DNA of 64,000 bases from a bacterium (lineage in GTDB: Bacteria > Zhuqueibacterota > Zhuqueibacteria > Zhuqueibacterales > Geothermadaptataceae): contig JAJRYV010000056.1 in NCBI GenBank assembly GCA_024275575.1, positions 35,896-99,895 on the forward strand, in the 5' to 3' direction. The position numbers and the translations under genes are program-made. This document shows, in pieces, positions 7,052 to 48,971 of the stretch. The notes below the pieces were generated by a model. It saw only the letters and a program-made list of their open reading frames with translations, had not been told where the DNA came from and did no database searches. Positions within the stretch are counted from its first letter, which is position 1. Each line of letters begins with the position of its first letter.

Positions 7052-7089
7052 TCAATACACAACCCACAATTATAGATTTTGGTGGCATT

Positions 7090-7434: not shown

Positions 7435-7527
7435 AATAAGCAATTCGTGAATCTCCAACCGGCTGGATTTTGCATGCCAATTGCCGAACCGGGATCTCAT
7501 AAAATTTAAAAATTGCAACAGGTTCTC

Positions 7528-10766: not shown

Positions 10767-11129
10767 CCACTACTACCGTTCATTTTTCGTATTTTCTGCG
10801 GATCGATTTTTCAATTATTGAGTCATTCTCCCGACTCTGATTTGCATTTACCGGGAAATTCAGCAGTCGCTGCTCAATTTACATGCACGCGTTACTTTTG
10901 TTTTTGCCTGTTTTCGAACCTAACAATAAAGTCGTCTGATTGAGCCTTTTGCTAAAGCTCGGTGGCCGATAAAAATAGACCATTGCCTGCAAGGCCGGTG
11001 CAGAGCGAGCAAAGCAGAGAAAAATTTCTTGCGATCCAGGTTAAAATTAAATACTCTTGCACTTGTATAATTTTACAACCCGTCAGCTTGTTTGATGGTA
11101 ACAATTCTTCTTTTCAAATTGGCAATCAC

Positions 11130-20128: not shown

Positions 20129-21047
20129 CGATGAGCACCCCCAACGCAATGGCGTACAGTTTATCTTCCGCGTTCTCAACCCGCGAGGGGATGAGCACCG
20201 GTATTTGTGCGCCCATAATCACATGTGCACAGGCAGAACCGCCGATGTATTTCACCGCTTTCGCCGTCATATTCGCTGCTTCAATATTCGGCGCCACCAT
20301 GCAATCGACCGCACCGGCAACAGATGAATCGATGCCTTTGGCTTCTGCTGCGGATTTGAGCAGGGCATTATCCAGCGCCAAAGGGCCGAATACATCGCAA
20401 TCGCTAAAGAATTCAGCGGCGCGTGCGGTGATTTTTTCAGCGTCAACCGTCGAAGGTATCGCCTCGGAAACCGCCTCAGTGGCGCTCATCAAACCGATTT
20501 TCGGCCGTGCTATGCCCAGCGCCTGCAGCACCGGTACCGCATTGCCGATGATCGCCAGCTTCTGCTGGAAATCCGGCAGCGGATTGAGACCGCCGTCGGT
20601 GATGCCGACCAGCCTTTTATTGCCGGAGCACTGGTCTTCATAGAGCAGGATATCGCTGAGCAATTTACCCTTGCGCAAGCCGGTTTCACGGTTTAAAACA
20701 GCGCGCAATAACTGGTCGGTGCGCAAATTCCCTTTCAGCAGAATATCGATTTCTCCGGCACGGGCGAGAGCCACCGCCTTTTGCGCCGCATTTTCAACGT
20801 TTTCTGCAGTGTGAAATATCGAATTTTCGAGTTGTGGCAGCAAATTCAAAGTGACAATTTTCTCACGAATTTTTGTCTCATCACCGATTAAAATCGGATG
20901 GACAATTTTTTTCTTTACCGCTGCAGCCAGTGCCGACAGCGCGACGTCGTTTTCAGCGCAGACAACCGCCACTTTTTTTTCCTGCCTCTGTTGTGCCGTG
21001 GAAAGCAATTGGGCAAAAGTTCTTATTGAATATTCATTCATGTTCAT
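20118..21047 (-). CDS. ptb: Phosphate butyryltransferase / phosphotransacylase
   Basis: 309 aa of the PTA_PTB family: VAVVCAEND, HPILIGD, LLKGNLRTDQLLRAVL, MVAPNIEAANM. Classic ptb-buk gene pair. Confidence 0.85.
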   Translation of the reverse strand: MNMNEYSIRTFAQLLSTAQQRQEKKVAVVCAENDVALSALAAAVKKKIVHPILIGDETKIREKIVTLNLLPQLENSIFHTAENVENAAQKAVALARAGEIDILLKGNLRTDQLLRAVLNRETGLRKGKLLSDILLYEDQCSGNKRLVGITDGGLNPLPDFQQKLAIIGNAVPVLQALGIARPKIGLMSATEAVSEAIPSTVDAEKITARAAEFFSDCDVFGPLALDNALLKSAAEAKGIDSSVAGAVDCMVAPNIEAANMTAKAVKYIGGSACAHVIMGAQIPVLIPSRVENAEDKLYAIALGVLIDAA

Positions 21048-21230: not shown

Positions 21231-21252
21231 GCTGCGGGATTCATTCCGCAGC
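21231..21252 (-). terminator. Stem-loop downstream of the RnfC-like gene (possible operon terminator or leader element for ptb)
   Basis: On the minus strand: GCTGCGG-aatgaatc-CCGCAGC followed by TAATTTT. It is one of three hairpins in the 335-nt spacer. Confidence 0.35.
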
Positions 21253-21382: not shown

Positions 21383-22735
21383 TTATCCGTTAGCTCGTTC
21401 CCGTGCCATTTTTTCCCGCAACAGGGCTTTGCCGATGCGAAATCGCTGCACAAGGGGAATATTCGAGGGGCAGGCATAAGAGCAGGAGCCGCATTCCATG
21501 CAATCCATGATGTTCAAATCCATCATTTCATCGTAGCGGCCGGCGCGGGCGAGGGCGCCGAGCTGTGTCGGGTTGAGATAAACCGGGCAGGCATCGACAC
21601 AGCGCATGCAGCGAATACAGGGATACTCCCGGGTAGAGATCATTTCATCTTCGGTAAAAAAGACCACCCCGGAGGTCCCTTTTGTGATGGGGATATCCGT
21701 CGTGCGTATCGCATTGCCCATCATCGGGCCGCCGAAGAGGATTTGCCGCACGTCGTCGCTCATACCGCCGCAAAACTCGATAACTTCAGATAATTTCGTA
21801 CCGATGGGAATGAGCACGTTGCGTGGCTTGCGAATTCCCGGCCCGGTAATGGTCGTCACCCGTTCGATCACCGGCTGGTTATAACGAAACAGATCGCCGA
21901 TTGCGGCAACTGTCCCAACATTATTCACCACAACCGAAATATCGATGGGCAATTTACCACTGGGAATTTCGCGTTTTAAAACAGCTTCGGTGAGCATTTT
22001 TTCCGCACCCTGCGGATATTTTGTTTGCAGCGGTACGATTTCACAGGGCAGGTCGGCAGGGACTTTATTTTGCAGCCTGGCCAATGCATCGAGTTTATTG
22101 ATTTCAGCGCCCAGATACGCACGTTCGGCACCGAGAATTTTCAGACAAATTTTGATACCGAGAAAGATAGCTTCAGGCTGCTCGAGCATCACCCGGTGGT
22201 CGCTCGTGAGATAGGGTTCGCATTCCGCTGCGTTGACGATGAAAAACTCCACCCTTTTGCCTTCCGGAATGCTCAGTTTAACATGGGTGGGAAATGCGGC
22301 GCCGCCAAGACCGACAAAACCACCTTTTTGAATGGCGCTCAAAAGCTCCGCCGGTTGCATATTTTCCCAGTCCAGTACATGCTCATCAAACAGGCGCTGG
22401 GCCGAATGCAGATCGCGTTTGATGACGATGGATTCAACCATGCGGCCGCTGGGATGTGGGCGCGGTTCGATGGCTGTGACCGTCCCCGTGACCGAAGCAT
22501 GCAAAGCAGCGGAGACAAAACCACCGGCTTGCGCAATCAATTGGCCACGATAAACTTTTTCACCGGCTTTGACGACCGGTTTTGAGGGGCCGCCGAGGTG
22601 CTGGCTCAAAGGCAGAATATACTCATCCACCAACGGCATGCGCTCGACCATGTGCGTGCGCGTCAATTCCTTAAAATCTCCCGGGTGCACGCCCCGGTCA
22701 AAAGTTTTGTTTGCAGAGCTCAAAAATGTGAACAT
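21383..22735 (-). CDS. rnfC: RnfC-like NADH/FMN-binding iron-sulfur subunit (orphan; no RnfDGEA nearby)
   Basis: RnfC_N barrel-sandwich N-terminus (HPGDFKELT...PLSQHLGGPSKPVVKAGEKVYRGQLIA). The VGLGGAAFPTHVKL motif and an SLBB-like region follow. Two ferredoxin motifs are present: CIRCMRCVDACP and CMECGSCSYACP. Confidence 0.85.
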   Translation of the reverse strand: MFTFLSSANKTFDRGVHPGDFKELTRTHMVERMPLVDEYILPLSQHLGGPSKPVVKAGEKVYRGQLIAQAGGFVSAALHASVTGTVTAIEPRPHPSGRMVESIVIKRDLHSAQRLFDEHVLDWENMQPAELLSAIQKGGFVGLGGAAFPTHVKLSIPEGKRVEFFIVNAAECEPYLTSDHRVMLEQPEAIFLGIKICLKILGAERAYLGAEINKLDALARLQNKVPADLPCEIVPLQTKYPQGAEKMLTEAVLKREIPSGKLPIDISVVVNNVGTVAAIGDLFRYNQPVIERVTTITGPGIRKPRNVLIPIGTKLSEVIEFCGGMSDDVRQILFGGPMMGNAIRTTDIPITKGTSGVVFFTEDEMISTREYPCIRCMRCVDACPVYLNPTQLGALARAGRYDEMMDLNIMDCMECGSCSYACPSNIPLVQRFRIGKALLREKMARERANG

Positions 22736-22768
22736 ATATTTTCTACCGCTTTAAATATCTTTGTAAAT

Positions 22769-23098
22769 TTAAACTTCGTTAGATGTTTCATTCAATCCGG
22801 CTAAAAATGAACGCAACGTTTCCTGAAAATCATTGCTGCCGACGGCAAAACCACTCAAATGCAATAAGCGGCTCTTGAGTTTTTCGTGCATAACCTGATC
22901 GCTGCTCTGTTCAAGTTGCCGGATTCTGCTTTCGCGTTCATCTTTCTCAACTGCTGAAAACAGATCGCTCACGGTTTCGCTTTTCTGTGTTTTTCGTATC
23001 TCGAGCGGTTTTGCGAGATTTTGCAGTAGCGCCCAGACATGCGCCGCCCCAGTGCAAATTTCCACTATTTCAGCCGCAACCCGATAATAGTGGAGCAC
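22769..23098 (-). CDS. Hypothetical 109-aa helical protein embedded in the Kor/Rnf-like operon
   Basis: The GTG start lies 3 nt after the stop of the 1344-aa gene; same strand, 33 nt before the rnfC-like gene. No motif recognised; charged helical middle (EKDERESRIRQLEQSSDQVMHEKLKSRL). Confidence 0.45.
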   Translation of the reverse strand: MLHYYRVAAEIVEICTGAAHVWALLQNLAKPLEIRKTQKSETVSDLFSAVEKDERESRIRQLEQSSDQVMHEKLKSRLLHLSGFAVGSNDFQETLRSFLAGLNETSNEV

Positions 23099-23101
23099 AT
23101 T

Positions 23102-26100
23102 CTATGCATCGATTGAGCGGATATAAGGGATTCTTCCGTTTTGATCAGCGGCAGATAGCTCAAGAAAATCCGGCAACGGCATTGTCCGTTCGTCAATTGC
23201 TGCGGCTTCAAATTCCTCAAATTGTCTTTGAAATTTCGGCCACTGCACGAGAAAATGCGCCGGCGTTAAAAGCTCGGTAATTTCCTTTTTCAATCCGTCA
23301 CGACTCTGCTGAACCCATGTGACGGCAGCCCATTTTTTATCCGGGGCAGGATTTTCACTAATGTCTAAACCTGGTAAAATCTGGTCTTTTTCGGTCACAG
23401 CACAACTGAACAACGGCGCGTAGCGGCAATGCACCGCCAGTTGCGACAATGCCGTTGCGGCGCTGCCGGGAAGTTTATTTGACGCTTCAATTTGCAGAAA
23501 AGCCGCGCCGTCAAATTCGATGGCGGCGAAAGCATTTTTCAATAAATTTTTCGGTGTGCCAATGGCACTTTGCGCAACTTGAACGTTGTTGAGAAAACAG
23601 GAATTTAACGCTGCCACTGTGTCGATTACGGAAGCACCATGAGTCAATCGGGGCTCTGTATTTAAAAAGACGCATTTAAACGGTTTGGCGCCATCAGCCA
23701 GCGGTAACAAATCCGCCGGATTTGCAGCCGATAAAAGGCCCGGGAAAACACCCACAACAGGCGGGTAAAAAGATTTTTCCTCCTCGCTGAAATCCTGCCA
23801 TTGCAGAGAAAGCGGAAGTTTCCCATGGTGATTTTCCAGTAAATTCTCGGCCCGGCGCAAAACGAGAAACGTCTCCGACATTTGCTGCATGAGCCCGGCA
23901 AAAAGACCGCTTAAGCTGCTCACGGAACAGGAAGGTTGCATTTGCAGCCACGGCGATTTAAAGGCATTGTACGGGAACTGCAACACATCGAGGCGGGAAT
24001 CGATTGCAATAATGGCATTGGCGCGCGCAAAACGATTATTCTCAGTGGAATAGGCCTGCTGCAGGGCGACGAGTTTTTCGCGTATGGCGACCAATTCCTG
24101 AATTTTCCCTGCATCCGGCTCGTCGTTTAAACGACTTGCAGCCAGGCGCGCCGCGTTGATATTTTGTTTACCCTGCGCCAGCAATTCGCTCAACCTGCGG
24201 CCGTAAGCCTCGAAGTCATTGATCTGGCTGGTTTTACTGAGATCACCCTGCACTCGGGTTTCGATTTTATCTTTCAGGTCATCGATTTTTGCCTGCAATT
24301 TCGCGACGCGCTCCTGCATCGTTTTTTCGATGGCCACTGTCAGCAAACGCAAAGCATTTTGTACATTAGCGGTTTTAGCAGCGTCGGGAAAAGGCAAGAC
24401 AGCCGCACGCACATTTTTATTAAGCAGGCTGTGCCAGGGCAATTCATCACAGCTTAAATCAGCGAGATCAGCAGCCGGCAACGCCTGTAAAAATGTCCAG
24501 TTTTGCTGATTCAGGGAAATAACTTCGGGTGTCGCCGCAACGATTTCCGCCGCCAGTTCGGGCAAAGCAGCGAGCAGCGGCGCTGCATTGCGGTATTCCG
24601 CCGGATTGATGGCGAGAACGATGACGCGGCCGCTGCCTTTGTTTTGCTCGTTGGCGCGACCGAAAAAATGATGATTCTTCAGTAGCAGCACTTTGCTGCA
24701 GATGGCCATGGTTAGGGCGAATTCTTCTTTAATTTGCTGTTTTTGCTCCTCGTTCGGCTTCATTTTTTCGATGAGTTTCACCAGGGACGAATCGAACAAT
24801 TCACCGGCATAACAGAAATTTTCGATGATCTCCGTTTGCAAATGCTTATAAGCCAGCCTGGCCAAATTATCGCGCAAGCGCGGCAGTTGGGTGAAAACAG
24901 CGCCCTCATTTTGCTTCAGCGCCATTGCGGTTTCGAGAATCGTTGCCAAATCCTGAACAGACGCCCAAACTCCGGCTTCAAAAGCTAACAAAAAGTCGAG
25001 ACGATCCACCGGCAAATTTTCGGGAATAAACTGCACGATCTTGCCGGTTTCCCGTGCGCCGTGGGTGAAAGCGCTGCTGCCGGCAGGCATCGTTGATATC
25101 GCGGCGAACGGATCGGCGCTGATGTTTTTCCATTGACCGTCAGCCTGCAGATATCCGATTCGGCTCCAAAATTTTTCCAGATCAAACAGGCTGCCATCCA
25201 AATCCTGCGTATTTTTGACGGTCCAGGGTGCGTCAATTTCATCGACACCGGGCTGATCCGTTGCTGCGATTTTCTTTATTATTACACTGTTAACGACTTC
25301 ATATCCCGCCTTGAAGGCCTCGGCTTCCGCGGCAGGCGCTGTTGCGGTGAATTGCTTTTTAATTTTGACGTTTAATTTTTTATCACCGAGATCGAATATT
25401 CGAGTGATTGCACCGAGAAGCGCGCTTTGCGTTTGCAGTTCAGGTGCGGCGGACGCTGCAAATACTTTGACTCCGGCTGTTTTCAAATCCGCTGCAATTT
25501 TTTCCGGCAAATCGATCTTTGTTGCACAATTGCGCAGCAGTAGAGCGCCCCCTGCCGCAATGCCGTCATTTGCTATATATTTTTCCAGTTCAGCAACGTT
25601 GCTGCAAACGACGAGCTTGCGGCCGGTGCGCGGTTCTGCTTTCAGCGGGAGAAAATTAAAATAAAAAGCCGGCTCGCCCTGATGCCAGGTTTGCCCGGCT
25701 TCCATCTGGCCCTGTTCGATGCCGGTAAAAGCTTCGCAAAAATATGCCGATATTTGGGGGTCAAATCTGCTTTGTTGCAGAACGAGAATTTCATCGCCGT
25801 TGATAAAATCCACCGTGGTCATGTCGATTTTCAGGCCGAGATCAGCCGCTGCAGGATAATCTTTACGCACGGCCTGTTGCAGCATTTCCAGTTTGGGCAA
25901 ACGCAAATCCGGCTGCCGGAAATTTACTCCGATGAAAAAGGTATTGCCCGTTGCCGTGCTGCCCGCCAGCGCCGCCAATTCGGCGAAGGAGACTTTGCGC
26001 TGCCCGCCGGCATCGACGGCGGTTGTAAAACCAATTTCACGGCCGGCCGCTGCAGAAAATTGTTGTTGAATCAACCGCGTGAAACTACCGGGCTTGCTGC

Positions 26101-27136
26101 CGGCGTTCGCTGATTTTTCGATCACCGTTATTCTTTCAATTGTCGTGAGCGTTTTTGCCAATTCCTGAAAAACTGCAGGGGAAAAATGATTCAGATGCAA
26201 AACGCTGAAACCGGCTTTTTTCTCCTTAGCCAGGTGATCGGCGACCCGGCAAGTTTCACGAAAAACAGCGCCCTGGGCGACGATCAGGTGATTTGCCTTT
26301 TTTACAGAATGCAAGCTGTTGCAACTGTAATCTCTGCCGGTCAATTGGGCGAATTCGCTGATGCAGCGCTGCAAAATCTCGTCGTGATGGGTGGCGGAAA
26401 AGGCAAAATTTGCTGCATTTGATTGCGCCAGCCAGCCGGTCTCCATTTGCGATAAAACGGCGATGGGGCGGTCGAGATCACAATAGCGCGGCACGCGTCG
26501 ACGTTTTTCGCCGAAGACCAGGGTCTGTGCCGGAGTGCTCGCTTCGGGAAAGTCTGAAGCATCACCGTTGAATTTTTGCAGCAAAGCATTTGCAGGTCGG
26601 AAGAAACTTTGAACACGGTTGAGCAAATCAACATCATTGAGAACGACGCAGGGAGCCAGCGCCTGTTCCGCCGCAGCATGGCCGATGAGCGCAAGATCGA
26701 CTGCCGATTGCACATCATTGGCATGGAGAACAATGGCACCACTGTCTATGAGTTGCTGCAGAAAAAAGCTGTCATGCAATGTCAGATGAAACAGGATCGG
26801 TAAATGTTTGCCCACGGCATCGGCAATACCATCGATGAGTTCAGCCGTATTTCTCGCTGAAGAAAACAGTGTGGTGCGCAAACCTGTGGCTGTTGCGCCT
26901 TGTGTAAAACCCAGTCCAGCAGAGCAATCCTGCGAAATTTCAATATTGTCGGGAAGGTTTTTATTGTGTGATTTCCACGGCTGCCGTGAAATATCCAAAG
27001 CGACGACATTGCATAATACAGCCTCAATATCGAGCAAAACCGCTCGTGTTGCTGCAATATTACTCTGGTCGCCAAACGGCGCCTGATCGATTTTTGATTT
27101 ATTTTTTTTCTTGAAAATCATTGCGATTTCTCTCAA
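23102..27136 (-). CDS. 1344-aa PFOR-like protein lacking cofactor-binding signatures (putative pseudoenzyme or scaffold)
   Basis: Collinear by eye with full-length PFOR/NifJ/YdbK, but the diagnostic residues are replaced (details in findings). No CxxCxxCxxxCP and no GDG...NN ThDP motif anywhere. The start is either TTG 27136 (TTGA overlap with the rnfB-like stop) or ATG 27121. Confidence 0.6.
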   Translation of the reverse strand: MREIAMIFKKKNKSKIDQAPFGDQSNIAATRAVLLDIEAVLCNVVALDISRQPWKSHNKNLPDNIEISQDCSAGLGFTQGATATGLRTTLFSSARNTAELIDGIADAVGKHLPILFHLTLHDSFFLQQLIDSGAIVLHANDVQSAVDLALIGHAAAEQALAPCVVLNDVDLLNRVQSFFRPANALLQKFNGDASDFPEASTPAQTLVFGEKRRRVPRYCDLDRPIAVLSQMETGWLAQSNAANFAFSATHHDEILQRCISEFAQLTGRDYSCNSLHSVKKANHLIVAQGAVFRETCRVADHLAKEKKAGFSVLHLNHFSPAVFQELAKTLTTIERITVIEKSANAGSKPGSFTRLIQQQFSAAAGREIGFTTAVDAGGQRKVSFAELAALAGSTATGNTFFIGVNFRQPDLRLPKLEMLQQAVRKDYPAAADLGLKIDMTTVDFINGDEILVLQQSRFDPQISAYFCEAFTGIEQGQMEAGQTWHQGEPAFYFNFLPLKAEPRTGRKLVVCSNVAELEKYIANDGIAAGGALLLRNCATKIDLPEKIAADLKTAGVKVFAASAAPELQTQSALLGAITRIFDLGDKKLNVKIKKQFTATAPAAEAEAFKAGYEVVNSVIIKKIAATDQPGVDEIDAPWTVKNTQDLDGSLFDLEKFWSRIGYLQADGQWKNISADPFAAISTMPAGSSAFTHGARETGKIVQFIPENLPVDRLDFLLAFEAGVWASVQDLATILETAMALKQNEGAVFTQLPRLRDNLARLAYKHLQTEIIENFCYAGELFDSSLVKLIEKMKPNEEQKQQIKEEFALTMAICSKVLLLKNHHFFGRANEQNKGSGRVIVLAINPAEYRNAAPLLAALPELAAEIVAATPEVISLNQQNWTFLQALPAADLADLSCDELPWHSLLNKNVRAAVLPFPDAAKTANVQNALRLLTVAIEKTMQERVAKLQAKIDDLKDKIETRVQGDLSKTSQINDFEAYGRRLSELLAQGKQNINAARLAASRLNDEPDAGKIQELVAIREKLVALQQAYSTENNRFARANAIIAIDSRLDVLQFPYNAFKSPWLQMQPSCSVSSLSGLFAGLMQQMSETFLVLRRAENLLENHHGKLPLSLQWQDFSEEEKSFYPPVVGVFPGLLSAANPADLLPLADGAKPFKCVFLNTEPRLTHGASVIDTVAALNSCFLNNVQVAQSAIGTPKNLLKNAFAAIEFDGAAFLQIEASNKLPGSAATALSQLAVHCRYAPLFSCAVTEKDQILPGLDISENPAPDKKWAAVTWVQQSRDGLKKEITELLTPAHFLVQWPKFQRQFEEFEAAAIDERTMPLPDFLELSAADQNGRIPYIRSIDA

Positions 27137-27972
27137 ATATTTTGCACTTCTGCAGCACGTTGTTCCTGCGGGAATTGTTGCTTTTCAATCCATAAAATGG
27201 CACCTGTGGGGCAGCGCAAGGTGGCGATTTCCGTCTGTTGGGAAAAGTTATTATCGATGACGGCGAGATTATTTTTAATTTCGATCAAACCGGCCGGGGC
27301 ATCGGCTGCGCAGATGCCGCAGCCGGTGCAAGCGACTTTGCACAAATCGGTAGCGCTATCGCCGGCGAGCAGGGATTTGCATTGTACCAGCAGTTTTTGT
27401 TTTTCGGAGCGAAGTTCAAACAAATCTTTGGGGCAAATTTCGACACAATCACCGCAAGCGGTGCATTTGTCTGCATCGACGACGGGCAGGCCGGTGGAAC
27501 TCATGTGAATCGCTTCAAAAGTACAAACGACCTCGCAATCAGCGAGCCCGAGGCAGCCCCAGGAGCAGGCCTTGCCACCGCCGGCAACAACAGCCGCCGC
27601 CCGGCAGGAGGAGAACCCCTGATAATCGACGATATCCCCGGCAACATCGCAGCCGCCGGCGCACATGAGCCGGGCAATTTTCCGCTCTGCCTCACCGGCA
27701 TCGATGCCGAGAAAATTTGCGATAGTTTCTGCTGAATCCGCTCCACCCACCGAACAGGCACTCGGCGACTTGCTGCCGCCAACCACTTCTTCGGCAAAAG
27801 CGGCGCACCCGGGAACACCACAGGCACCGCAATTAGCGCCGGGCAACATATCGGTCACCTGGCCGATGCGCGGGTCTTCATAAACGCTGAGTTTTCGATT
27901 GGCAAAAACGAGCACCAGGGCAAGCGCGGCACTCAGCCCTGTGAGAAATCCTACGGATGATAAAAATTCCAT
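27133..27972 (-). CDS. rnfB: RnfB-like membrane-anchored polyferredoxin
   Basis: N-terminal TM helix (FLTGLSAALALVLVFA). The RnfB Fe-S domain follows (LPGANCGACGVPGCAAFAEEVV ... CSVGG), then several Cys clusters: CAGGC, CSWGCLGLADCEVVC, CTACGDCVEICP, CTGCGICAADAP. Confidence 0.8.
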   Translation of the reverse strand: MEFLSSVGFLTGLSAALALVLVFANRKLSVYEDPRIGQVTDMLPGANCGACGVPGCAAFAEEVVGGSKSPSACSVGGADSAETIANFLGIDAGEAERKIARLMCAGGCDVAGDIVDYQGFSSCRAAAVVAGGGKACSWGCLGLADCEVVCTFEAIHMSSTGLPVVDADKCTACGDCVEICPKDLFELRSEKQKLLVQCKSLLAGDSATDLCKVACTGCGICAADAPAGLIEIKNNLAVIDNNFSQQTEIATLRCPTGAILWIEKQQFPQEQRAAEVQNI

Positions 27973-28030: not shown

Positions 28031-30403
28031 TTAATTAAAAGGCTGCGCTCGTTTCATCAGGTCTTCAAGACCCTCTTCGTCCGGGTTTAGCGGTTTGCCG
28101 GGGTGGATGATTTTCACCGGACATTTTTCCGCAGCTTCGACGATATCGCGGAAAGGGCCGGCGCCGGCATCTTTGATAATTGCTTGCTGATTGCCGTCGT
28201 AAATGAAGATCAGCGAATTCCGTTGTATGCATTCATTGCAACTCGTGCACAGCGGTGTATCGATGTAAGCGGCATCGAATGATATATCATCATCAGCTTC
28301 CCCGGCAATTTCAGCTTTTGGTGTTTCCTCGCTTTTCGGCGCCGAGACTGCTTGTTCCGGCGCCGCAGCAGGTGCAGTCGCAGGTACGGCAACGGGTGCC
28401 GCCGTCTGACCGAGCAATCCGGCAGCAATATTGCCGACAATCTCATCAGCAAGGGAACCGACGGTCGAGTCGAGTTTAGCCTGATAAGTTTGTTCCAGTT
28501 CATTTTCTTTGGCGGCCAGGGCTGCTGCAAGTTTTTCCTGTTCAATCTGCATTTGAGCCTGCACATGGGAATTTTCTATCCCGGCCAGTTCCTGTAAATT
28601 CTGCCAGTTCAACTGAAGTTTTTGCCCTGAATTCAGCAGAAATTGTGAAACGACGACAGCGAATTTATGCCCTTTTTTATCGTATTTAATAACAAATGGA
28701 ATCTTGTTCGATGTTGTACTTTCGTGCAAAAAATCTGCAACGGGAATAAAATCATCGGTCAATTCAGCAGCATTTATTTCGACACAATGGGCGGCAAATT
28801 CCGGTTGGTCGGAAAGGAAATCGACGGTTGTATAACAATCTTCGATAGTGATATGATCGCCGTTTTCATCAATAAAACCGGCCTTTGTCCTGATCCAGTC
28901 GCCGGCGAAATCTTCATTCGTTGCGATGGAAAACTTATCAGCCCATTTTAAACCCTTGCCGGGGTCGAGTGCAAATGCCGGATTAACGCGGGACGAAGTG
29001 GCTCCAATGACTTGTTTAAAGCGATTTTCAGCATCCTTGTGCCCGCCGACAAAAACCCCCCAAAATGATGGGCCGCTAAACTGCAAACCATTTTGAAAAA
29101 CTTCGGTTAGTGAGGTAAAATTCGACAATGAAAGCTGTGCGGCAAATATATTATTCTCCTGCAAAAGGCTGCGCATTAATCGGTTGGCAGCAGCAGAATA
29201 AAAATGCGATTCATGGGGTGCTTTGCCCTGTTCCAGCACCTTGTCGAATTCGATAATAACTTTGACGGGTGCTTCTGTCGCCGCGAGTCGTAAAATTTCG
29301 CTGATATGATCGGCGGTGAGTTTACTCTGTTTCAAATAGACAACCGCAGGCCAGATCATCTTCAGCTCAGAAACCGGCACATTGATAAGATCAAATTTCT
29401 CAAAATAGGCATCATGTTGTTGTGCATCGTATCGATTTTCAACTTCGAGCATGGCGATTTGCCGGGCGCGGAAATAACCGATAAACTTTTTCAAGGTGGA
29501 TTCATACTGCTTGAATGCAGTCTTAAAATCACTTGCAACGGTCATCTCACCGTTTTCCAGTTCTTCGATCATCTGCGTCAATTTATCTTTTACCAGTTGC
29601 AGCCGGGCATTTCTCGTCTGCGATGGATTGAGATGGCCCACATGCGCCATGAGGCCGGCAAAAGTATCAGGTTTGATTTCATCGGTTGCGAGACGGCCGG
29701 CCAATTCTTCCGGTGACTTTGCCGCCTCCGATTTTTCATATTCAATGGTGAGAATATCACTGACACGCTGCAGCAGGTCGTGATTTTGACGGAGAAATTC
29801 AGCACTGGAATTTGCCGCCTGCCGCGCATAAATACGGGAAAATATGCGTTGGATGACTTGCGGCTGGAAAGCGAGCAATTCTGCTGGAAAGCTCTTTTCG
29901 CTGAATAGTGTTTTGAGCGTTTTTTGCAGGTTTTCTTTTTTATCTTTTGCGGTTCTCGCTGATTTAATAACGTCTTTTAGCGCTTTTTCCCAGGTTTCTT
30001 CCAGGTTTGCGGATTTCGCAAAGCACTTTTGGCGCATCGCATTTTCGAGGAGATATAAATAATGTCGCAATTCGGCAGTTTCTTCGTTTTCCGCGTCCAA
30101 ACTGGTGATCATTTCATCGATAAATTGCGTCAATGTGATCATCGGTTTTTCAGTATCTTCCGGTAAGATCAGCGGGAAATCAAGGCGCATTTTTTCAAGA
30201 TGACGCAAGCCGGCATCAAAAACCGAGCTTACCCCCGACAGAGGCACTGGTTTTGCTTTAAACTCGCTCTTTTCTCCGGTGATAAAAAAATGACGCAAAT
30301 CAGTAATAAAGTTCTGTTCATCTATTTGAGCAAGGGCGCCGTTGTTGCTGACCTGCCCAACTTGATTTTCAACCACGACATCAGGCATGGCCGTTTCCTC
30401 CAC
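28031..30403 (-). CDS. 790-aa protein: helical N-region, degenerate PFOR domain-VI-like region, coiled coil, Ala/Pro-rich linker, C-terminal single-cluster ferredoxin domain
   Basis: C-terminal 84 aa: YIDTPLCTSCNECIQRN...AAEKCPVKIIHPG, a CxxCxxC...CP single-[4Fe-4S]/[3Fe-4S]-type ferredoxin pattern. It is preceded by QTAAPVAVPATAPAAAPEQAVSAPKSEETPKAE. The start (30403 or ATG 30388) overlaps the korB stop. Confidence 0.55.
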   Translation of the reverse strand: MEETAMPDVVVENQVGQVSNNGALAQIDEQNFITDLRHFFITGEKSEFKAKPVPLSGVSSVFDAGLRHLEKMRLDFPLILPEDTEKPMITLTQFIDEMITSLDAENEETAELRHYLYLLENAMRQKCFAKSANLEETWEKALKDVIKSARTAKDKKENLQKTLKTLFSEKSFPAELLAFQPQVIQRIFSRIYARQAANSSAEFLRQNHDLLQRVSDILTIEYEKSEAAKSPEELAGRLATDEIKPDTFAGLMAHVGHLNPSQTRNARLQLVKDKLTQMIEELENGEMTVASDFKTAFKQYESTLKKFIGYFRARQIAMLEVENRYDAQQHDAYFEKFDLINVPVSELKMIWPAVVYLKQSKLTADHISEILRLAATEAPVKVIIEFDKVLEQGKAPHESHFYSAAANRLMRSLLQENNIFAAQLSLSNFTSLTEVFQNGLQFSGPSFWGVFVGGHKDAENRFKQVIGATSSRVNPAFALDPGKGLKWADKFSIATNEDFAGDWIRTKAGFIDENGDHITIEDCYTTVDFLSDQPEFAAHCVEINAAELTDDFIPVADFLHESTTSNKIPFVIKYDKKGHKFAVVVSQFLLNSGQKLQLNWQNLQELAGIENSHVQAQMQIEQEKLAAALAAKENELEQTYQAKLDSTVGSLADEIVGNIAAGLLGQTAAPVAVPATAPAAAPEQAVSAPKSEETPKAEIAGEADDDISFDAAYIDTPLCTSCNECIQRNSLIFIYDGNQQAIIKDAGAGPFRDIVEAAEKCPVKIIHPGKPLNPDEEGLEDLMKRAQPFN

Positions 30404-31361
30404 TTACCGGCTCGATCAAAATCTTGTTAAAAGCGTTCTCCAGAACATTTTTGCGCATCTCGCTGGTCACAAAACGCTTGCGCCGCTTTGCATCATCATA
30501 AACTTCAACATTTTCATTGCGGTAAAGAATACCCACTGGCAATAGGTCTTCTTTTTCAGCCAGCTCGCGAGCTCGGTTCAAGTTGGATGGATCATGATTT
30601 TCATGATTTTTAAAAGTTTTGAGCATGGTTTCGCTGGAGTTCAATCCGTCTTCGTGCTGCAGCATTAAAATCGATTCCGGTTGCATCAGATGATCGAACA
30701 TGTGCGGGGTGAAATGCGGGCAGCGCTGCACGATATGAATAAACGAGAAACCACGATGGTGATAGGCCGCTTTAATAATATCATACATCATTTCAGGCAT
30801 CCATTCACCGACTTGAGCGACGAATGAGACATTGCTGATACCCAATGTGACGCTGAGTGGTTTGATGGGCTTCAACGGCGAACCTGTTGGTGTAGTATTG
30901 GTTACCAGCCCTTGCGGTGAAGTTGGGGAAACCTGCAGTTTTGTAAGACCATAAATTTCATTATTATGCAGCATTGCGACCATATTCATATTGTATCGCA
31001 CAGCGTGGATCCAGTGCGCCGTTCCGATGCTGCAGCAATCGCCGTCGCCCATATTGACAAATACGTCAAGATCGGGCCGGCGGATTTTGATGCCTTCGGC
31101 GATGGGCAAAGCACGGCCGTGCAAACCGTGGAAACCGTCTGTTCCCATGTAGTGGGGGAAGCGGCTCGAACAACCGATACCGGAGACAAATACAGTTTTC
31201 TCCGGTGCGAGTTGTTCATCGCGGCACAAGCGCTGGACAGATGTCAGAATAGAATTATCACCACAGCCGGGGCACCAGCGCGGCACATTGCTTTGATATT
31301 CTTCCAAAGTGTAGTAAGTATCCGGTAATGCAATTTCACAATTTTGATTTATGCCAAACAT
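30381..31361 (-). CDS. korB: 2-oxoacid:ferredoxin oxidoreductase beta subunit (ThDP-binding; two-subunit KorAB type)
   Basis: WCPGCGDNSIL, SGIGCSSRFPHYM, ThDP motif NMGDGDCCSIG...NNEIYGLTK. Confidence 0.9.
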   Translation of the reverse strand: MFGINQNCEIALPDTYYTLEEYQSNVPRWCPGCGDNSILTSVQRLCRDEQLAPEKTVFVSGIGCSSRFPHYMGTDGFHGLHGRALPIAEGIKIRRPDLDVFVNMGDGDCCSIGTAHWIHAVRYNMNMVAMLHNNEIYGLTKLQVSPTSPQGLVTNTTPTGSPLKPIKPLSVTLGISNVSFVAQVGEWMPEMMYDIIKAAYHHRGFSFIHIVQRCPHFTPHMFDHLMQPESILMLQHEDGLNSSETMLKTFKNHENHDPSNLNRARELAEKEDLLPVGILYRNENVEVYDDAKRRKRFVTSEMRKNVLENAFNKILIEPVSGGNGHA

Positions 31362-31413: not shown

Positions 31414-33303
31414 TTATTTGAGACGTTCCTCGATCATATCGATAATGGAATGCGGCTTGATCGGCTGTCCGAAAACATTGGACCAGCAATCGACATCGAT
31501 GAGATAACGTGCCCGTAGCAACAATGCAAGGTTTGAGTAACGGCGATTATTTTCATCGAAAAATTTATCCTTATAACTGTCCGAATAATTAATTTCAACG
31601 GTCATCACCTGCTTGAATTGCTGCAGTATTTCCTTGATTCCTGAAGCCATGGGTTGCAAATATTTGAGATGCAACGAGGAGACTGAATAGCCTTTTTCAC
31701 AGGCTGCATCCACGGCTTCTTCGATCACGCCGAGTGTACTGCCCCAGCCGATGATGAGCAAATCACCTTTTTTATCACCGTGAACTTTCGGTGTTTGCAG
31801 TGTTTTTTGAAATGCTGCCAGTTTCTTGCTGCGCTTTTCCATTGCAAATTGATTGATCCAGGGATCGTAGGCCACTTTGCTTTCGCGTGAATGCGCCAGG
31901 CCGGTCAGGGTGTGCATGCCGCCGGGCTGCCCGGGAATGATCCGGCTTGAAAGTCCGGTTTCTTCATCCCAATCGTAGGGGGCCATGTCTTCCGGAACCG
32001 GCGACTGGTCAAACGGCGGCGCCACCCATTCTTCTTTAAACTCCGGTTTCATGAATGGTTGCTGGCCGGTTGCCAGGTTGGCATCAGAAAGAATATAAAC
32101 CGGCATGCGGAAGGTTTCAGCGATTTTGCGCGCGGTTATCGGCGCATAAAAACAGTCTTCGATGGTCGCCGGCGCCATGACGATTTTGGGCGCGTCGCCA
32201 TGAGTATGGAAAAGCGACATAAGCAAATCGCCCTGTTCGACTTTAGTCGGCAAGCCAGTGCTTGGGCCGCCACGCTGAACGTTCACAACAACGAGTGGGA
32301 TTTCCGCCATTGAAGCGAGCCCCAGAACTTCGGTTTTTAATGACAACCCGGGCCCGGAAGTGATGGTCACCGCGCATTTGCCGGCATAGGAGGCGCCAAC
32401 GGCAAATGCCGCCGCCGCAATCTCATCTTCCGCCTGATGCACGACGCCACCGACATGTTCAAAAATCTCGCTGAGATAATGAGACGCCGAAGTTGCCGGT
32501 GTGATGGGATACATGGCGCAGACATCCATGCCGGATGCGACAACGCCCAACGCCAGCGCGGTATTGCCATTCAAAACAATTTGCCGATCTTTGATGCCTG
32601 CAGACGGAATTTCAAATTTAAAATCGAGGTTTTCTTCAGCCCATGCATAGCCGGATTCGAGCAATTGAATATTCGGCGCGATGACCTTCTCGCCTTTTTT
32701 GGCAAAGGTCAGACGAATCTCATTGCGCGCAGCCTCGAGGTCGCGTGAATAAATACTGCACAACATGCCGAGAGCCCACATGTTTTTACCGCGCTGCGGA
32801 TTTTGTACAATTTTCAGGCATTCCTTTTCCATCGGCACTTCATAGATGCGCAATTTCGTTTTGCTCAGTTCATCCAGGCCTTCCCGGTACATTTTTTTGA
32901 TTTCCGGGTCCGCATGATCACGCCATTTGTCTTCAAGCAAAACGATGGCATTGGGTTTCATATTGTCTGACTCAAAGCGGCCGAGCAGCGATTGTTCATT
33001 AAAGGCGACAACGAGATCGGCTTCATCGCCGGCATTGGTGATATAAAAGGAACCGATACGAATTCTGTTGCCGCTGCCGCCGACCTTGCTGCGGGGCGGC
33101 GGCTGAATTTCTGCAGGAATAATTTCCACAGTCCAGATCCCGTTGCCGCTTTTTGCGGAAATCGCACCGAATGCCTGCCCGGCTTTCTGCGCACCCTCAC
33201 CAGCGTCACTGACGATTTCAATAATATGCTCTTTTAACAGAACTTTCTTTTTTTCACCCGCAGCAAGCGGGGAAACCTTTGCCAAAGCTTCTACTTTGTC
33301 CAT
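31414..33303 (-). CDS. korA: 2-oxoacid:ferredoxin oxidoreductase alpha subunit (fused gamma+alpha domains; KorA type)
   Basis: 629 aa: N-terminal gamma-like domain (IVSDAGEGAQKAGQ), then MYPITPATSAS, QAEDEIAAAAFAVGASYAG, GPGLSLKTEVLG, VNVQRGGPSTGLPTK. Confidence 0.9.
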   Translation of the reverse strand: MDKVEALAKVSPLAAGEKKKVLLKEHIIEIVSDAGEGAQKAGQAFGAISAKSGNGIWTVEIIPAEIQPPPRSKVGGSGNRIRIGSFYITNAGDEADLVVAFNEQSLLGRFESDNMKPNAIVLLEDKWRDHADPEIKKMYREGLDELSKTKLRIYEVPMEKECLKIVQNPQRGKNMWALGMLCSIYSRDLEAARNEIRLTFAKKGEKVIAPNIQLLESGYAWAEENLDFKFEIPSAGIKDRQIVLNGNTALALGVVASGMDVCAMYPITPATSASHYLSEIFEHVGGVVHQAEDEIAAAAFAVGASYAGKCAVTITSGPGLSLKTEVLGLASMAEIPLVVVNVQRGGPSTGLPTKVEQGDLLMSLFHTHGDAPKIVMAPATIEDCFYAPITARKIAETFRMPVYILSDANLATGQQPFMKPEFKEEWVAPPFDQSPVPEDMAPYDWDEETGLSSRIIPGQPGGMHTLTGLAHSRESKVAYDPWINQFAMEKRSKKLAAFQKTLQTPKVHGDKKGDLLIIGWGSTLGVIEEAVDAACEKGYSVSSLHLKYLQPMASGIKEILQQFKQVMTVEINYSDSYKDKFFDENNRRYSNLALLLRARYLIDVDCWSNVFGQPIKPHSIIDMIEERLK

Positions 33304-48768: not shown

Positions 48769-48971
48769 CCGGTTTTCCTTTCTTTTGCCATCCAGCCGGT
48801 ATCTGTTCAGCGTGAAAAATTAAATCAATAAAGAAACAAAACGTTGCATGCTCTGCGCCTCATGAAAAGCTTTTAAAAATCACTGGCGAAAAAGAGTCTT
48901 GGATTTTACAACAAAAAGCAGCTATTTTGCAAACAAAAGATTATATTTTTCACGCTGTCTGGAGAAGAGAT

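What the first reader, a model, noticed from the sequence alone, without database searches (positions are those of the whole stretch)
21383..27972. RnfB-like and RnfC-like genes without RnfA/D/E/G, split by about 4.4 kb of unknown genes
Canonical rnf loci keep B and C next to the membrane subunits (orders such as BCDGEA, CDGEAB or ABCDGE). Here the RnfB-like gene still has its N-terminal anchor helix and Fe-S domain. The RnfC-like gene keeps GLGGAAFPTHVKL and both CxxCxxCxxxCP motifs. The two are separated by the 1344-aa and 109-aa genes, and no D/G/E/A homologue is in the 64 kb. Stand-alone RnfC-like proteins are known as NADH-linked electron donors to other enzymes (for example PrdC of proline reductase and PduS). 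A comparable recruited role for a 2-oxoacid oxidoreductase is therefore plausible, and energetically notable because it would be non-ion-pumping.
Basis: partly seen in the sequence, partly recalled or inferred. Interest (0 to 1): 0.6.

Follow-up and report, generated by a model that had tools for sequence, protein, structure and literature searches.

The report
Rnf B/C genes tied to oxoacid oxidoreductase
The rnfB- and rnfC-like genes are real, and they sit in a shortened copy of a widespread but undescribed operon that links a 2-oxoacid oxidoreductase, two dead pyruvate-oxidoreductase relatives and a tethered ferredoxin to the Rnf ion pump; here the pump's membrane genes are missing.

Summary
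rnfB (27972-27133, minus strand) and rnfC (22735-21383) are full-length and keep their cofactor motifs. No rnfA/D/E/G exists anywhere in the 64 kb.

The interpretation needs revision. The "1344-aa and 109-aa unknown genes" are one gene (Y). It descends from pyruvate:ferredoxin oxidoreductase (PFOR), has lost its thiamine and Fe-S sites, and is interrupted by one in-frame TAG.

The operon is korA-korB-X-rnfB-Y-rnfC. X is a second PFOR-derived protein. It carries a single-cluster ferredoxin on a roughly 40-residue disordered tether.

The same order, followed by rnfDGEA, recurs across phyla: 43 of 61 loci with enough downstream sequence carry all five downstream genes. These include sulfur-oxidising Gammaproteobacteria, Myxococcota, Gemmatimonadota, Acidobacteriota and Calditrichota. 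A giant gene between rnfB and rnfC is therefore the rule for this family, and these B/C are orthologues of true Rnf subunits, not PrdC/PduS-like recruits.

A small Calditrichota/KSB1 clade (window, L087, L091) lost rnfDGEA from the locus and also lost Y's ferredoxin clusters.

It is unresolved whether the membrane core is supplied from elsewhere (my lean, about 0.5) or the module is non-pumping (about 0.3). I found no paper describing the cluster as a unit; one paper lists its genes as "por-like, rnfB, por".

The parts
31414..33303 (-). korA: 2-oxoacid:acceptor oxidoreductase alpha/gamma fusion subunit (629 aa)
   Evidence: TIGR03710 526 bits (cut-off 483); Pfam POR, POR_N and PFOR_II. Best solved relative is Magnetococcus 2-oxoglutarate:ferredoxin oxidoreductase 6n2n_A, E 1e-79. 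88% identical to L087 and 56% to L004.
30381..31361 (-). korB: OFOR beta subunit (326 aa), catalytically complete
   Evidence: TPP_enzyme_C and PFO_beta_C domains. The sequence shows CPGCGD, GIGCSS and RCPH (four cluster Cys) and GDGD...NNEIYG (thiamine-PP motif).
28031..30403 (-). X: PFOR-derived scaffold protein (790 aa from the GTG; the true start is probably the ATG five codons further in, at codon 6 of the ORF). It comprises a helical N-domain, an OFOR-beta/PFOR-domain-VI-like fold without cofactor motifs, and a 52-residue helix.
   Evidence: The only Pfam hit is the C-terminal Fer4_13. AF2 model: pLDDT 84.5, pTM 0.73. Foldseek best hits are PFOR 7plm_A/6cin and OFOR beta subunits. It is a paralogue of the C-terminal half of Y (tblastn). 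Family size: 652 representatives of 50%-identity clusters at E<=1e-30.
28280..28408 (-). X residues 666-708: disordered Ala/Pro/Glu-rich tether ending in an acidic run
   Evidence: pLDDT is below 50 over 666-677 and 682-708, flanked by confident domains. All 16 ferredoxin-bearing X homologues examined have an equivalent stretch, similar in composition but not in sequence.
28034..28279 (-). X residues 709-790: tethered single-[4Fe-4S] ferredoxin domain
   Evidence: C719, C722, C725 and C761 are invariant in 51 homologues. The domain superposes on Desulfovibrio africanus ferredoxin I 1fxr_A (TM 0.84, rmsd 1.2 A, 29% identity).
27133..27972 (-). rnfB: membrane-anchored polyferredoxin subunit of Rnf (279 aa)
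   Evidence: It is 52-64% identical to the RnfB of complete clusters and of L089. Between the window and L087 the TM helix is 87%, the B8 domain 79% and the core 86% identical.
23102..27136 (-). Y, part 1 (1344 codons; the database start is at Met6, giving 1339 aa): PFOR-derived pseudoenzyme. It ends at an in-frame TAG (23104-23102).
   Evidence: Weak POR_N hit. 50% identical to the continuous 1459-aa P0002 and 22-30% to 1400-1730-aa relatives that carry PFOR domains. It lacks the GDG...N motif, the proximal-cluster Cys and both CxxCxxCxxxCP motifs. The AF2 model of residues 431-1344 matches PFOR 6cio/6cin at E 2e-12, plus OFOR beta and gamma subunits.
22769..23098 (-). Y, part 2 (the '109-aa gene'): C-terminal tail of Y, in the same frame as part 1
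   Evidence: Frame arithmetic and read-through translation. A tblastn HSP from the L004 giant crosses the stop. 50% identical to the tail of L087 Y and 61% to L091.
21383..22735 (-). rnfC: NAD(H)/FMN subunit of Rnf with two [4Fe-4S] clusters (450 aa)
   Evidence: 87% identical to L087, 81% to L091, 71% to L089, 67% to L088 and 56% to L004.
21231..21252 (-). terminator-like hairpin about 130 nt after the rnfC stop; probable 3' end of the operon
   Evidence: 7-bp stem with 6 G-C pairs followed by TAATTTTAAA. This is a consensus match only.

Best explanation
rnfB and rnfC are true Rnf subunit genes inside a six-gene operon, korA-korB-X-rnfB-Y-rnfC (33303-21383, minus strand). This operon is a 3'-shortened member of a widespread conserved cluster, korA-korB-X-rnfB-Y-rnfC-rnfD-rnfG-rnfE-rnfA.

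What the sequence shows:
- KorAB is a complete two-subunit 2-oxoacid:ferredoxin oxidoreductase, and its nearest solved relative is a 2-oxoglutarate enzyme.
- X and Y are PFOR descendants with no thiamine site.
- X ends in a single-cluster ferredoxin held on a disordered tether of about 40 residues.
- Here Y has also lost both ferredoxin-domain clusters.

Inferred mechanism: X and Y act as scaffolds that hold KorAB against the cytoplasmic face of Rnf. KorAB oxidises its 2-oxoacid. The swinging ferredoxin domain of X takes the electrons from the KorB cluster to the Fe-S chain of RnfB. The electrons end on NAD+ at the FMN of RnfC, and no free ferredoxin is needed.

In most family members the path from B to C runs through RnfA/E, G and D and pumps ions. 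In this Calditrichota/KSB1 clade those four genes are gone from the locus. My committed guess is that RnfB and RnfC still dock on an RnfDGEA core encoded elsewhere in the genome, either a split operon or a second canonical rnf operon. On that reading the system remains ion-pumping.
For: Family and synteny:
- The Y search and contig look-ups show the same gene order in Myxococcota, Gemmatimonadota and an unnamed metagenome contig (L003), each followed by rnfCDGEA.
- A scan of one genome per species found 111 relatives and kept 80 loci.
- Of 61 non-redundant loci with at least 6 kb downstream, 43 have C+D+G+E+A. Of 53 with at least 7.5 kb upstream, 46 have korA+korB+X+rnfB.
- A Calditrichota relative (L088, RnfC 67% identical) has the complete set.

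Subunit integrity.

Dead PFOR status of X and Y.

Tethered ferredoxin.

Catalytic versus scaffold evolutionary rates: between the window and L087, KorA is 88%, KorB 84%, RnfB 82.5% and RnfC 87% identical, against 55% for X and 50% for Y.

For a membrane core supplied in trans:
- RnfB keeps TM1 and all four Cys of the B8 domain, with no relaxation relative to its core. In the A. woodii structure B8 serves only to reduce the RnfA/E cluster, TM1 packs on RnfG, and the nearest B and C clusters are more than 30 A apart (PMC11889175).
- RnfC changed at only 5 of 189 family-conserved positions in the clade lacking rnfDGEA at the locus.
- The sister lineage L089 keeps an intact rnfD (66% identical to L088) with no G/E/A nearby, so split arrangements with partners elsewhere exist in this group.
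- The cultured Calditrichota species Caldithrix abyssi has a canonical rnfBCDGEA (PMC5317091).
Against: - No complex has been isolated. Physical association of KorAB, X, Y and Rnf is inferred only from gene order, tight gene spacing and domain architecture.
- No rnfD at 58% identity or more to the L089 RnfD lies on the window's 126.6-kb contig or on the 1.3-Mb contig of L087.
- The loss of rnfDGEA coincides with loss of Y's two [4Fe-4S] motifs in the window, L087 and L091, and partly in L089. That looks like a functional change rather than a mere relocation.
- The RnfC stem branch of the clade is somewhat long.
- Y carries an in-frame TAG in this assembly.
- The substrate (2-oxoglutarate) and the direction of electron flow are inferred, not shown.
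Confidence: 0.5

Rival explanations
1. This is a self-contained, non-pumping 2-oxoacid:NAD+ oxidoreductase. The clade has truly dispensed with RnfDGEA. KorAB, X, RnfB, Y and RnfC form a membrane-anchored but non-translocating complex. Electrons pass from the RnfB chain directly to the RnfC clusters, for example through the mobile B8 domain of RnfB swinging to RnfC instead of to RnfA/E.
For: - Independent assemblies of the clade (window, L087, L091) lack rnfD after rnfC, and the sequence downstream differs in each: ptb-buk, Fic, and a reverse transcriptase.
- All the catalytic subunits stay under strong constraint after the loss, at 81-88% identity.
- No close rnfD lies on 1.3 Mb plus 126 kb of the same contigs.
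- Y's ferredoxin clusters were lost together with the pump genes.
- RnfC and RnfB touch each other in the canonical complex, and B8 is a mobile tethered domain.
- A hairpin right after rnfC closes the operon.
Against: - The gap between the nearest B and C clusters is more than 30 A in the known architecture.
- TM1 and B8 of RnfB, and 184 of 189 conserved RnfC positions, are retained as if their old partners were still present.
- The intermediate L089, with rnfD but no G/E/A, is hard to explain without partners encoded elsewhere.
- About 180 mV per electron pair would be discarded. This estimate is from textbook potentials, not computed here.
- The rest of both genomes is unseen.
Confidence: 0.3
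2. The parts are the same but the physiological direction is reversed. NADH, with or without membrane potential, drives reduction of the tethered ferredoxin and reductive carboxylation of succinyl-CoA by KorAB. This is 2-oxoglutarate synthesis, as has been proposed for the sulfur-oxidising autotrophs that carry the full cluster.
For: - The full cluster is most common in autotrophic sulfur oxidisers. In tubeworm symbionts it lies in an 'rTCA cycle cluster 2' and is transcribed.
- The nearest solved KorA relative is a CO2-fixing OGOR.
- A glutamate synthase large subunit lies 3 kb away in the window.
Against: - Without the pump genes, NADH cannot by itself reduce a low-potential ferredoxin.
- The window organism groups with Calditrichota/KSB1. 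Its neighbouring genes are catabolic: ptb, buk, acyl-CoA carboxylase and enoyl-CoA hydratase.
- Both directions are chemically allowed, so gene content cannot decide between them.
Confidence: 0.1
3. This is a decaying remnant. After rnfDGEA was deleted the remaining genes are on their way to becoming pseudogenes, and the TAG in Y is the first visible lesion.
For: - Y has an in-frame stop here.
- Y has lost all cofactor motifs.
- X and Y evolve three to four times faster than their neighbours.
Against: - Five or six long ORFs, over 11 kb in total, remain open in the window, L087 and L091. RnfC, RnfB, KorA and KorB are 81-88% identical between them, and every cofactor ligand is kept.
- The 109-codon tail after the TAG is still conserved, at 50-61% identity.
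- X and Y are equally fast-evolving in lineages with complete clusters.
Confidence: 0.05

Closest known systems
Canonical Rnf complex (RnfABCDGE), e.g. Acetobacterium woodii 9eri and Clostridium tetanomorphum 7zc6
   Same: RnfC and RnfB align over their full length with the solved subunits. All FMN/NADH and Fe-S motifs, the RnfB membrane helix and the B8 domain are present. Relatives of this locus encode all six subunits in the order B...CDGEA.
   Different: No A, D, E or G gene lies in the window. A 4.4-kb PFOR-derived gene sits between B and C, and korAB and X precede B. The electron donor is predicted to be a built-in ferredoxin domain rather than a free ferredoxin.
Pyruvate:ferredoxin oxidoreductase (single-chain PFOR; Moorella 6cin, Desulfovibrio africanus 1b0p)
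   Same: The Y family aligns with PFOR domains I-II, V and the end of VI by profile. The modelled C-terminal 914 residues of the window's Y match PFOR at E 2e-12. A minority of family members (P0003, P0004, P0007, P0020) keep the full thiamine and three-cluster motif set.
   Different: The window's Y has no GDG...N motif, no proximal-cluster cysteines and no CxxCxxCxxxCP motifs. It also has long helical insertions and a C-terminal extension, so it cannot be a catalytic PFOR.
[quoted passage not shown]
   Same: It has the alpha/gamma fusion plus beta architecture, the thiamine motif, four cluster cysteines and no delta or ferredoxin subunit.
   Different: Substrate was not tested. Here the genes are encoded with two scaffold proteins and Rnf subunits.
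'rTCA cycle cluster 2' of tubeworm symbionts (Rubin-Blum et al. 2019, PMC6315080): korA, korB, por-like, rnfB, por
   Same: It is the same gene family and order as L040-L042 and as the window's korA-korB-X-rnfB-Y.
   Different: That paper treats 'por' as a working PFOR. In the main text and the supplement passages I read, it does not note the missing cofactor sites, the tethered ferredoxin or the usual continuation into rnfCDGEA. In those symbionts rnfC is also absent from the locus.
Swinging-arm carriers of 2-oxoacid dehydrogenase complexes (lipoyl domains of E2 on Ala/Pro-rich linkers)
   Same: It works alike: a small redox carrier domain sits on a compositionally conserved, disordered Ala/Pro/Glu-rich linker attached to a scaffold.
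   Different: There is no homology. The carrier is a [4Fe-4S] ferredoxin, not a lipoyl domain. This analogy comes from my own knowledge and was not tested.
Stand-alone RnfC-like electron-transfer proteins (PrdC of proline reductase, PduS)
   Same: An RnfC-type flavoprotein is encoded without Rnf membrane subunits next to it.
   Different: The window protein scores 196 bits against the 490-bit cut-off of the PrdC model, but 526 bits on the rnfC model. It clusters with RnfCs of complete operons, and no prd or pdu genes are nearby.

Membership tests
Rnf complex (RnfABCDGE) | RnfC: FMN/NADH-binding Complex1_51K fold plus two C-terminal [4Fe-4S] motifs | tested here: met
   TIGR01945 526 bits against a 246-bit cut-off. 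Full-length alignment to 9eri_C. Both CxxCxxCxxxCP motifs present.
Rnf complex (RnfABCDGE) | RnfB: N-terminal membrane helix, PF04060 (B8) cluster domain and a polyferredoxin core | tested here: met
   TIGR01944 79.8 bits against a 68.7-bit cut-off. Alignment to 9eri_B residues 8-260.
Rnf complex (RnfABCDGE) | Membrane subunits RnfA, RnfE, RnfD and RnfG encoded with B and C | tested here: not met
   There is no tblastn or Pfam hit in the 64-kb window. The rest of the genome could not be read.
Rnf complex (RnfABCDGE) | Ion-translocating ferredoxin:NAD+ oxidoreductase activity | not testable with these tools
   This needs biochemistry.
korAB-X-rnfB-Y-rnfCDGEA cluster family (defined here) | Gene order korA, korB, X, rnfB, Y, rnfC on one strand with short gaps | tested here: met
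   compared.
korAB-X-rnfB-Y-rnfCDGEA cluster family (defined here) | X with a C-terminal single-cluster ferredoxin behind a disordered linker | tested here: met
korAB-X-rnfB-Y-rnfCDGEA cluster family (defined here) | Y with two CxxCxxCxxxCP motifs (PFOR domain V) | tested here: not met
   The motifs are absent in the window, L087, L089 and L091, and present in all other family members examined.
korAB-X-rnfB-Y-rnfCDGEA cluster family (defined here) | rnfDGEA directly downstream of rnfC | tested here: not met
   They are present in 43 of 61 loci and absent here.
Pyruvate:ferredoxin oxidoreductase (for Y) | Thiamine-PP binding motif GDG(X)nN in domain VI | tested here: not met
   The window has GV-FPGLL...LNTEPRL where P0003/4/7/20 have GGDGAMLDIG...LDTQVYSNTGGQ.
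Pyruvate:ferredoxin oxidoreductase (for Y) | Three [4Fe-4S] clusters (proximal Cys set plus domain V) | tested here: not met
Pyruvate:ferredoxin oxidoreductase (for Y) | PFOR multi-domain fold | tested here: met
   POR_N hit. Foldseek E 2e-12 to 6cio/6cin for residues 431-1344. Model pLDDT is 71.9, so domain-level only.
Two-subunit OFOR (KorAB type) | Alpha/gamma fusion plus a beta subunit with the thiamine motif and four cluster Cys, and no delta subunit | tested here: met
Two-subunit OFOR (KorAB type) | Specificity for 2-oxoglutarate | not tested
   This rests only on the nearest solved homologue (6n2n). The NCBIfam hit that passes its cut-off is a subfamily-level model.
PrdC / stand-alone RnfC-like proteins | Passing the PrdC equivalog model and having a proline-reductase gene neighbourhood | tested here: not met
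   TIGR04481 195.9 bits against a 490-bit cut-off. There are no prd genes in the window.

The most novel reading that the evidence does not exclude
The parent family is a new kind of respiratory supercomplex. In it, a KorAB 2-oxoacid oxidoreductase is bolted onto Rnf by two dead PFOR paralogues and wired to it by a ferredoxin on a swinging tether. Such an assembly would work without free ferredoxin and would couple 2-oxoglutarate/succinyl-CoA+CO2 directly to NAD(H) and the ion gradient.

The window's clade would then be a natural pump-less derivative. In it, the mobile B8 domain of RnfB has been re-aimed from RnfA/E to RnfC, giving a membrane-anchored, non-translocating 2-oxoacid:NAD+ oxidoreductase.
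Probability: 0.3. Interest if true: 0.8.

Novelty: new variant of a known kind. Interest (0 to 1): 0.65.

Why it matters
Rnf is normally described as exchanging electrons with free ferredoxin. A conserved operon that adds a dedicated oxidoreductase, two scaffolds and a tethered ferredoxin suggests a hard-wired donor for this pump.

X-family proteins fall into 652 protein clusters at 50% identity, and Y-family clusters occur in at least five phyla.

In sulfur-oxidising autotrophs and animal symbionts this bears on an open problem: how the low-potential electrons for 2-oxoglutarate synthase in the reverse TCA cycle are supplied.

The window's lineage offers a natural experiment, because the same module is present without the pump genes. 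It is also a warning for annotation. The genes called 'PFOR' or 'por' in these clusters mostly lack the thiamine and cluster ligands and should not be counted as pyruvate synthases in metabolic reconstructions.

Tried and rejected
- **Finding the source genome.** The presence of rnfDGEA elsewhere therefore could not be tested. As a substitute I searched with the L089 RnfD and looked for hits on contigs of length 126601 or 1315045. There were none among the best 120, which is weak evidence only.
- **Genome scan.** It worked with the gammaproteobacterial subset A3, which biases the 80 loci towards Gammaproteobacteria.
- **Metagenome scan.** The scan with window Y plus P0002 found no relative. 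I did not use the second scan that was allowed.
- **Literature.** Searches for a description of the cluster found only Rubin-Blum 2019.
- **RnfC surface changes.** Looking for clade-specific changes that would betray loss of the RnfD contact found only 5 replacements. They could not be mapped to the interface without coordinates.
- **ptb-buk as part of the system.** I rejected this as not conserved. They are absent next to the cluster in L087, and a terminator-like hairpin separates them from rnfC.
- **RnfD remnant.** The 335-bp rnfC-ptb spacer gave no tblastn hit.
- **The 160-aa ORF after rnfD in L089.** It is not recognisable as RnfG.
- **Substrate-specificity residues of KorAB.** Not pursued.

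Full report
**1. The observation**

On the minus strand the window carries, back to back:
- a 629-aa ORF (33303-31414)
- a 326-aa ORF (31361-30381)
- a 790-aa ORF (30403-28031)
- a 279-aa ORF (27972-27133)
- a 1344-aa ORF (27136-23102)
- a 109-aa ORF (23098-22769)
- a 450-aa ORF (22735-21383)

The 450-aa protein is an RnfC. It scores 526 bits on TIGR01945 (cut-off 246) and carries RnfC_N, Complex1_51K, SLBB and two 4Fe-4S motifs. It aligns end to end with the solved RnfC subunits of Acetobacterium woodii, Clostridium tetanomorphum and Azotobacter vinelandii.

The 279-aa protein is an RnfB. It has the N-terminal hydrophobic helix, the PF04060 cluster domain and the ferredoxin core. It aligns with residues 8-260 of A. 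woodii RnfB.

No RnfA, D, E or G is encoded in the 64 kb:
- tblastn with these four subunits from three phyla finds nothing at E<=1e-3.
- Pfam scans of essentially all long ORFs find none of PF02508, PF03116 or PF04205.
- Only three ORFs have 3 or more hydrophobic segments. One is MotA/ExbB; the other two have no Pfam match and draw no RnfD/G/E/A tblastn hit.

**2. The genes in between**

The 1344-aa and 109-aa ORFs are in the same reading frame. They are separated by one TAG (23104-23102) and one further codon. In the closest relatives the gene is continuous: 1459-1483 aa in L001/L087, and an uninterrupted junction in L091. I call this gene Y.

Y gives a weak POR_N hit. Its homologues are proteins of 1400-1730 aa that carry PFOR domains. 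A profile of the family matches solved PFORs over domains I-II, V and the end of VI. An AlphaFold model of the window's residues 431-1344 (pLDDT 71.9) has PFOR as its best structural match (E 2e-12), followed by OFOR beta and gamma subunits.

The cofactor sites, however, are gone. Four family members (P0003, P0004, P0007, P0020) keep the thiamine motif GGDG...SNTGGQ and the proximal-cluster cysteines. Most members keep only the two CxxCxxCxxxCP motifs of the ferredoxin domain. The window's Y and P0002 keep none of these. Y is therefore a PFOR-derived pseudoenzyme.

**3. The rest of the operon**

The 629-aa and 326-aa proteins are the alpha/gamma and beta subunits of a two-subunit 2-oxoacid:ferredoxin oxidoreductase. 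The beta subunit has all four cluster cysteines and the thiamine motif. The nearest solved relative is the Magnetococcus 2-oxoglutarate enzyme.

The 790-aa protein (X) has no Pfam domain except a C-terminal Fer4_13. It is a paralogue of the C-terminal half of Y. Its AlphaFold model is confident (pLDDT 84.5). The model shows, in order:
- a helical N-domain
- an OFOR-beta/PFOR-domain-VI-like fold
- a 52-residue helix
- a disordered stretch (residues 666-708, pLDDT below 50)
- a compact domain that superposes on Desulfovibrio africanus ferredoxin I (rmsd 1.2 A)

The four cluster cysteines are invariant in 51 homologues. The linker is conserved in length and in Ala/Pro/Glu-rich composition, with a terminal acidic run, but not in sequence.

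Terminator-like hairpins lie after the upstream htrA gene and about 130 nt after rnfC. The transcription unit is therefore probably korA-korB-X-rnfB-Y-rnfC. The ptb and buk genes further downstream are probably separate, and they are not next to the cluster in L087.

**4. Relatives elsewhere**

Contig look-ups for Y homologues show the order korA-korB-X-rnfB-Y-rnfC-rnfD-rnfG-rnfE-rnfA in a Polyangiaceae genome, a Longimicrobiales genome (there followed by apbE) and an unnamed metagenome contig.

A scan of one genome per species found 111 relatives, and 80 loci were kept. Most are sulfur-oxidising Gammaproteobacteria: Thiodiazotropha, Thiosymbion, Sedimenticola, tubeworm symbionts, Thiomargarita, Beggiatoa relatives, Achromatium and Chromatiaceae. 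One is from Acidobacteriota. The query alignment was gammaproteobacterial, so this distribution is biased.

In a tblastn survey:
- 46 of 53 loci with enough upstream sequence have korA, korB, X and rnfB.
- 43 of 61 loci with at least 6 kb downstream have rnfC, D, G, E and A.
- 12 have no rnf gene downstream. These are mainly tubeworm symbionts and large sulfur bacteria.
- 4 have rnfC only: the window, L087, a Thiosymbion (L016) and a Sedimenticola MAG (L052).
- 1 has rnfC-rnfD only (L089).

The X family alone has 652 representatives of 50%-identity clusters at E<=1e-30. So the giant gene between rnfB and rnfC is the family norm.

**5. The window's own lineage**

The nearest RnfC sequences are annotated as Calditrichaeota (87%, GCA_008501765.1, L087) and KSB1 (81%, L091). 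This fits the type IX secretion sorting domains seen in the window.

| Locus | RnfC identity to window | Y ferredoxin motifs | rnf genes after Y |
|---|---|---|---|
| L087 | 87% | absent | rnfC only, then a Fic gene on the opposite strand |
| L091 | 81% | absent | rnfC only, then a reverse transcriptase |
| L092 | 73% | both present | rnfC, rnfD (contig ends) |
| L089 | 71% | absent | rnfC, rnfD; no G, E or A |
| L088 | 67% | both present | rnfCDGEA, complete |

L087 has the same six genes as the window.

In a neighbour-joining tree of RnfC, the window, P0032, L091 and L087 form one clade on a moderately long stem. The pump genes and Y's clusters were thus lost in the same small part of the tree.

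Between the window and L087, KorA, KorB, RnfB and RnfC are 82-88% identical, whereas X and Y are 50-55% identical. The cofactor subunits are under strong constraint, and the scaffolds evolve fast but stay open.

**6. How it most likely works**

Shown:
- A complete OFOR that lacks a ferredoxin subunit.
- A ferredoxin domain on a flexible tether, attached to a cofactor-less PFOR-like scaffold.
- A second such scaffold.
- Intact RnfB and RnfC.

Inferred: X and Y hold KorAB on the cytoplasmic face of Rnf. The tethered ferredoxin shuttles electrons from the KorB cluster to the RnfB chain. NAD+ is reduced at RnfC. Where rnfDGEA are present, the flow runs through the membrane and pumps ions. In autotrophs it may run in reverse to make 2-oxoglutarate.

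For the window the open step is how electrons get from B to C.

Arguments that a membrane core is still used (encoded elsewhere):
- The A. woodii structure paper (PMC11889175) reports that RnfC touches RnfB and that the nearest B and C clusters are more than 30 A apart.
- The same paper reports that the mobile B8 domain of RnfB feeds the RnfA/E cluster and that the RnfB helix packs on RnfG.
- The window's RnfB keeps this helix and B8 with no sign of relaxation.
- RnfC differs at only 5 of 189 conserved positions.
- L089 keeps a well-conserved rnfD without G/E/A nearby.
- Caldithrix abyssi, a cultured member of the phylum, has a canonical rnfBCDGEA.

Arguments for a genuinely pump-less module:
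- The loss is shared by three assemblies with different downstream genes.
- It coincides with loss of Y's clusters.
- No close rnfD lies on the 1.3-Mb and 126-kb contigs.

I put about 0.5 on the in-trans pump, about 0.3 on the non-pumping short circuit, about 0.1 on a mainly reductive direction, and about 0.05 on decay.

**7. Comparison with what is known**

The components belong to known families: Rnf, PFOR/OFOR and single-cluster ferredoxins.

I found the cluster in only one paper. Rubin-Blum et al. 2019 list 'korA, korB, por-like, rnfB, por' in a tubeworm-symbiont rTCA cluster, show that it is transcribed, and treat 'por' as a working PFOR. A 2025 review of Rnf/Nqr does not mention such clusters, and other searches found nothing.

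The window's RnfC is not a PrdC- or PduS-type protein. In my view the best description is a new variant of a known kind: an Rnf-associated OFOR module with PFOR-derived scaffolds and a tethered ferredoxin, seen here in a form without the pump genes.

**8. Limits**

- Nothing about physical association, substrate, direction or pumping has been measured.
- The locus survey relies on tblastn with a few query sets and on loci biased by the search alignment.
- The Y model is only moderately confident.
- The TAG may be an assembly error.
- The rest of the source genome was not available.

Noticed in passing
window 23102-23104 (minus strand): A single in-frame TAG splits the PFOR-like gene Y into 1344 and 109 codons. 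A GTG lies two codons after the stop. The relatives L087 and L091 read through at a non-conserved position (N or G/Q). It may be a sequencing error, a recent nonsense mutation or a tolerated split.
   Followed up: partly
L087:12645-12773: A 44-residue fragment 59% identical to the C-terminus of RnfC lies about 1.3 kb downstream of the intact rnfC, beyond an oppositely oriented Fic gene. It looks like a scar of the rearrangement that removed rnfDGEA.
   Followed up: no
L089:9166-13044 (also L090): In this relative a 271-aa ORF (weak Peptidase_MA_2 hit) sits between Y and rnfC. An intact rnfD is followed by a 160-aa ORF that is not recognisable as RnfG, and no rnfG/E/A follows. rnfC-rnfD without G/E/A is unexplained.
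   Followed up: partly
L091:4540-5313: A reverse-transcriptase (RVT_1) gene lies directly downstream of rnfC in the KSB1 relative. This suggests a possible group II intron or retroelement at the site where rnfD would be.
   Followed up: no
L026:19216-24391: A second rnfB-Y pair starts immediately after the rnfA of a complete korAB-X-rnfB-Y-rnfCDGEA cluster in a Pseudomonadales MAG, i.e. a tandem duplication of part of the system.
   Followed up: no
L025, L027, L029, L040, L041, L045-L048, L050, L052, L066, L071, L072 (about 0.8-3 kb in locus coordinates): Many gammaproteobacterial loci have a partial RnfC/NuoF-like gene upstream of korA. It probably corresponds to the 'nuoF*' listed by Rubin-Blum et al. 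Its role is unknown.
   Followed up: no
L016:14441-15301: In Candidatus Thiosymbion a PD-(D/E)XK transposase gene sits between Y and rnfC, and two unknown ORFs sit between rnfB and Y. korAB, X and rnfDGEA are not nearby, so the cluster is fragmented by mobile elements.
   Followed up: partly
window 36103-40764 (+): A 1553-aa glutamate synthase large subunit lies about 3 kb from korA, beyond htrA and on the opposite strand. A shared substrate (2-oxoglutarate) is possible but was not examined.
   Followed up: no
window 11723-13552 (+) and 10962-11903 (+): A 609-aa protein with about 11 hydrophobic segments and no Pfam match lies next to an ABC ATPase gene. It is possibly a novel permease.
   Followed up: no
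window 41133-43148 (+): A 671-aa protein has six DUF5666 repeats and a type IX secretion C-terminal sorting domain. This supports an FCB-group origin for the window.
   Followed up: no
window 19040-21047 (minus strand); 5501-9036 (+); 48927-49727 (+): Phosphate butyryltransferase and butyrate kinase lie directly downstream of rnfC. An acyl-CoA carboxylase pair and an enoyl-CoA hydratase lie elsewhere in the window. Together these point to amino-acid or short-chain acyl-CoA catabolism in this organism.
   Followed up: partly
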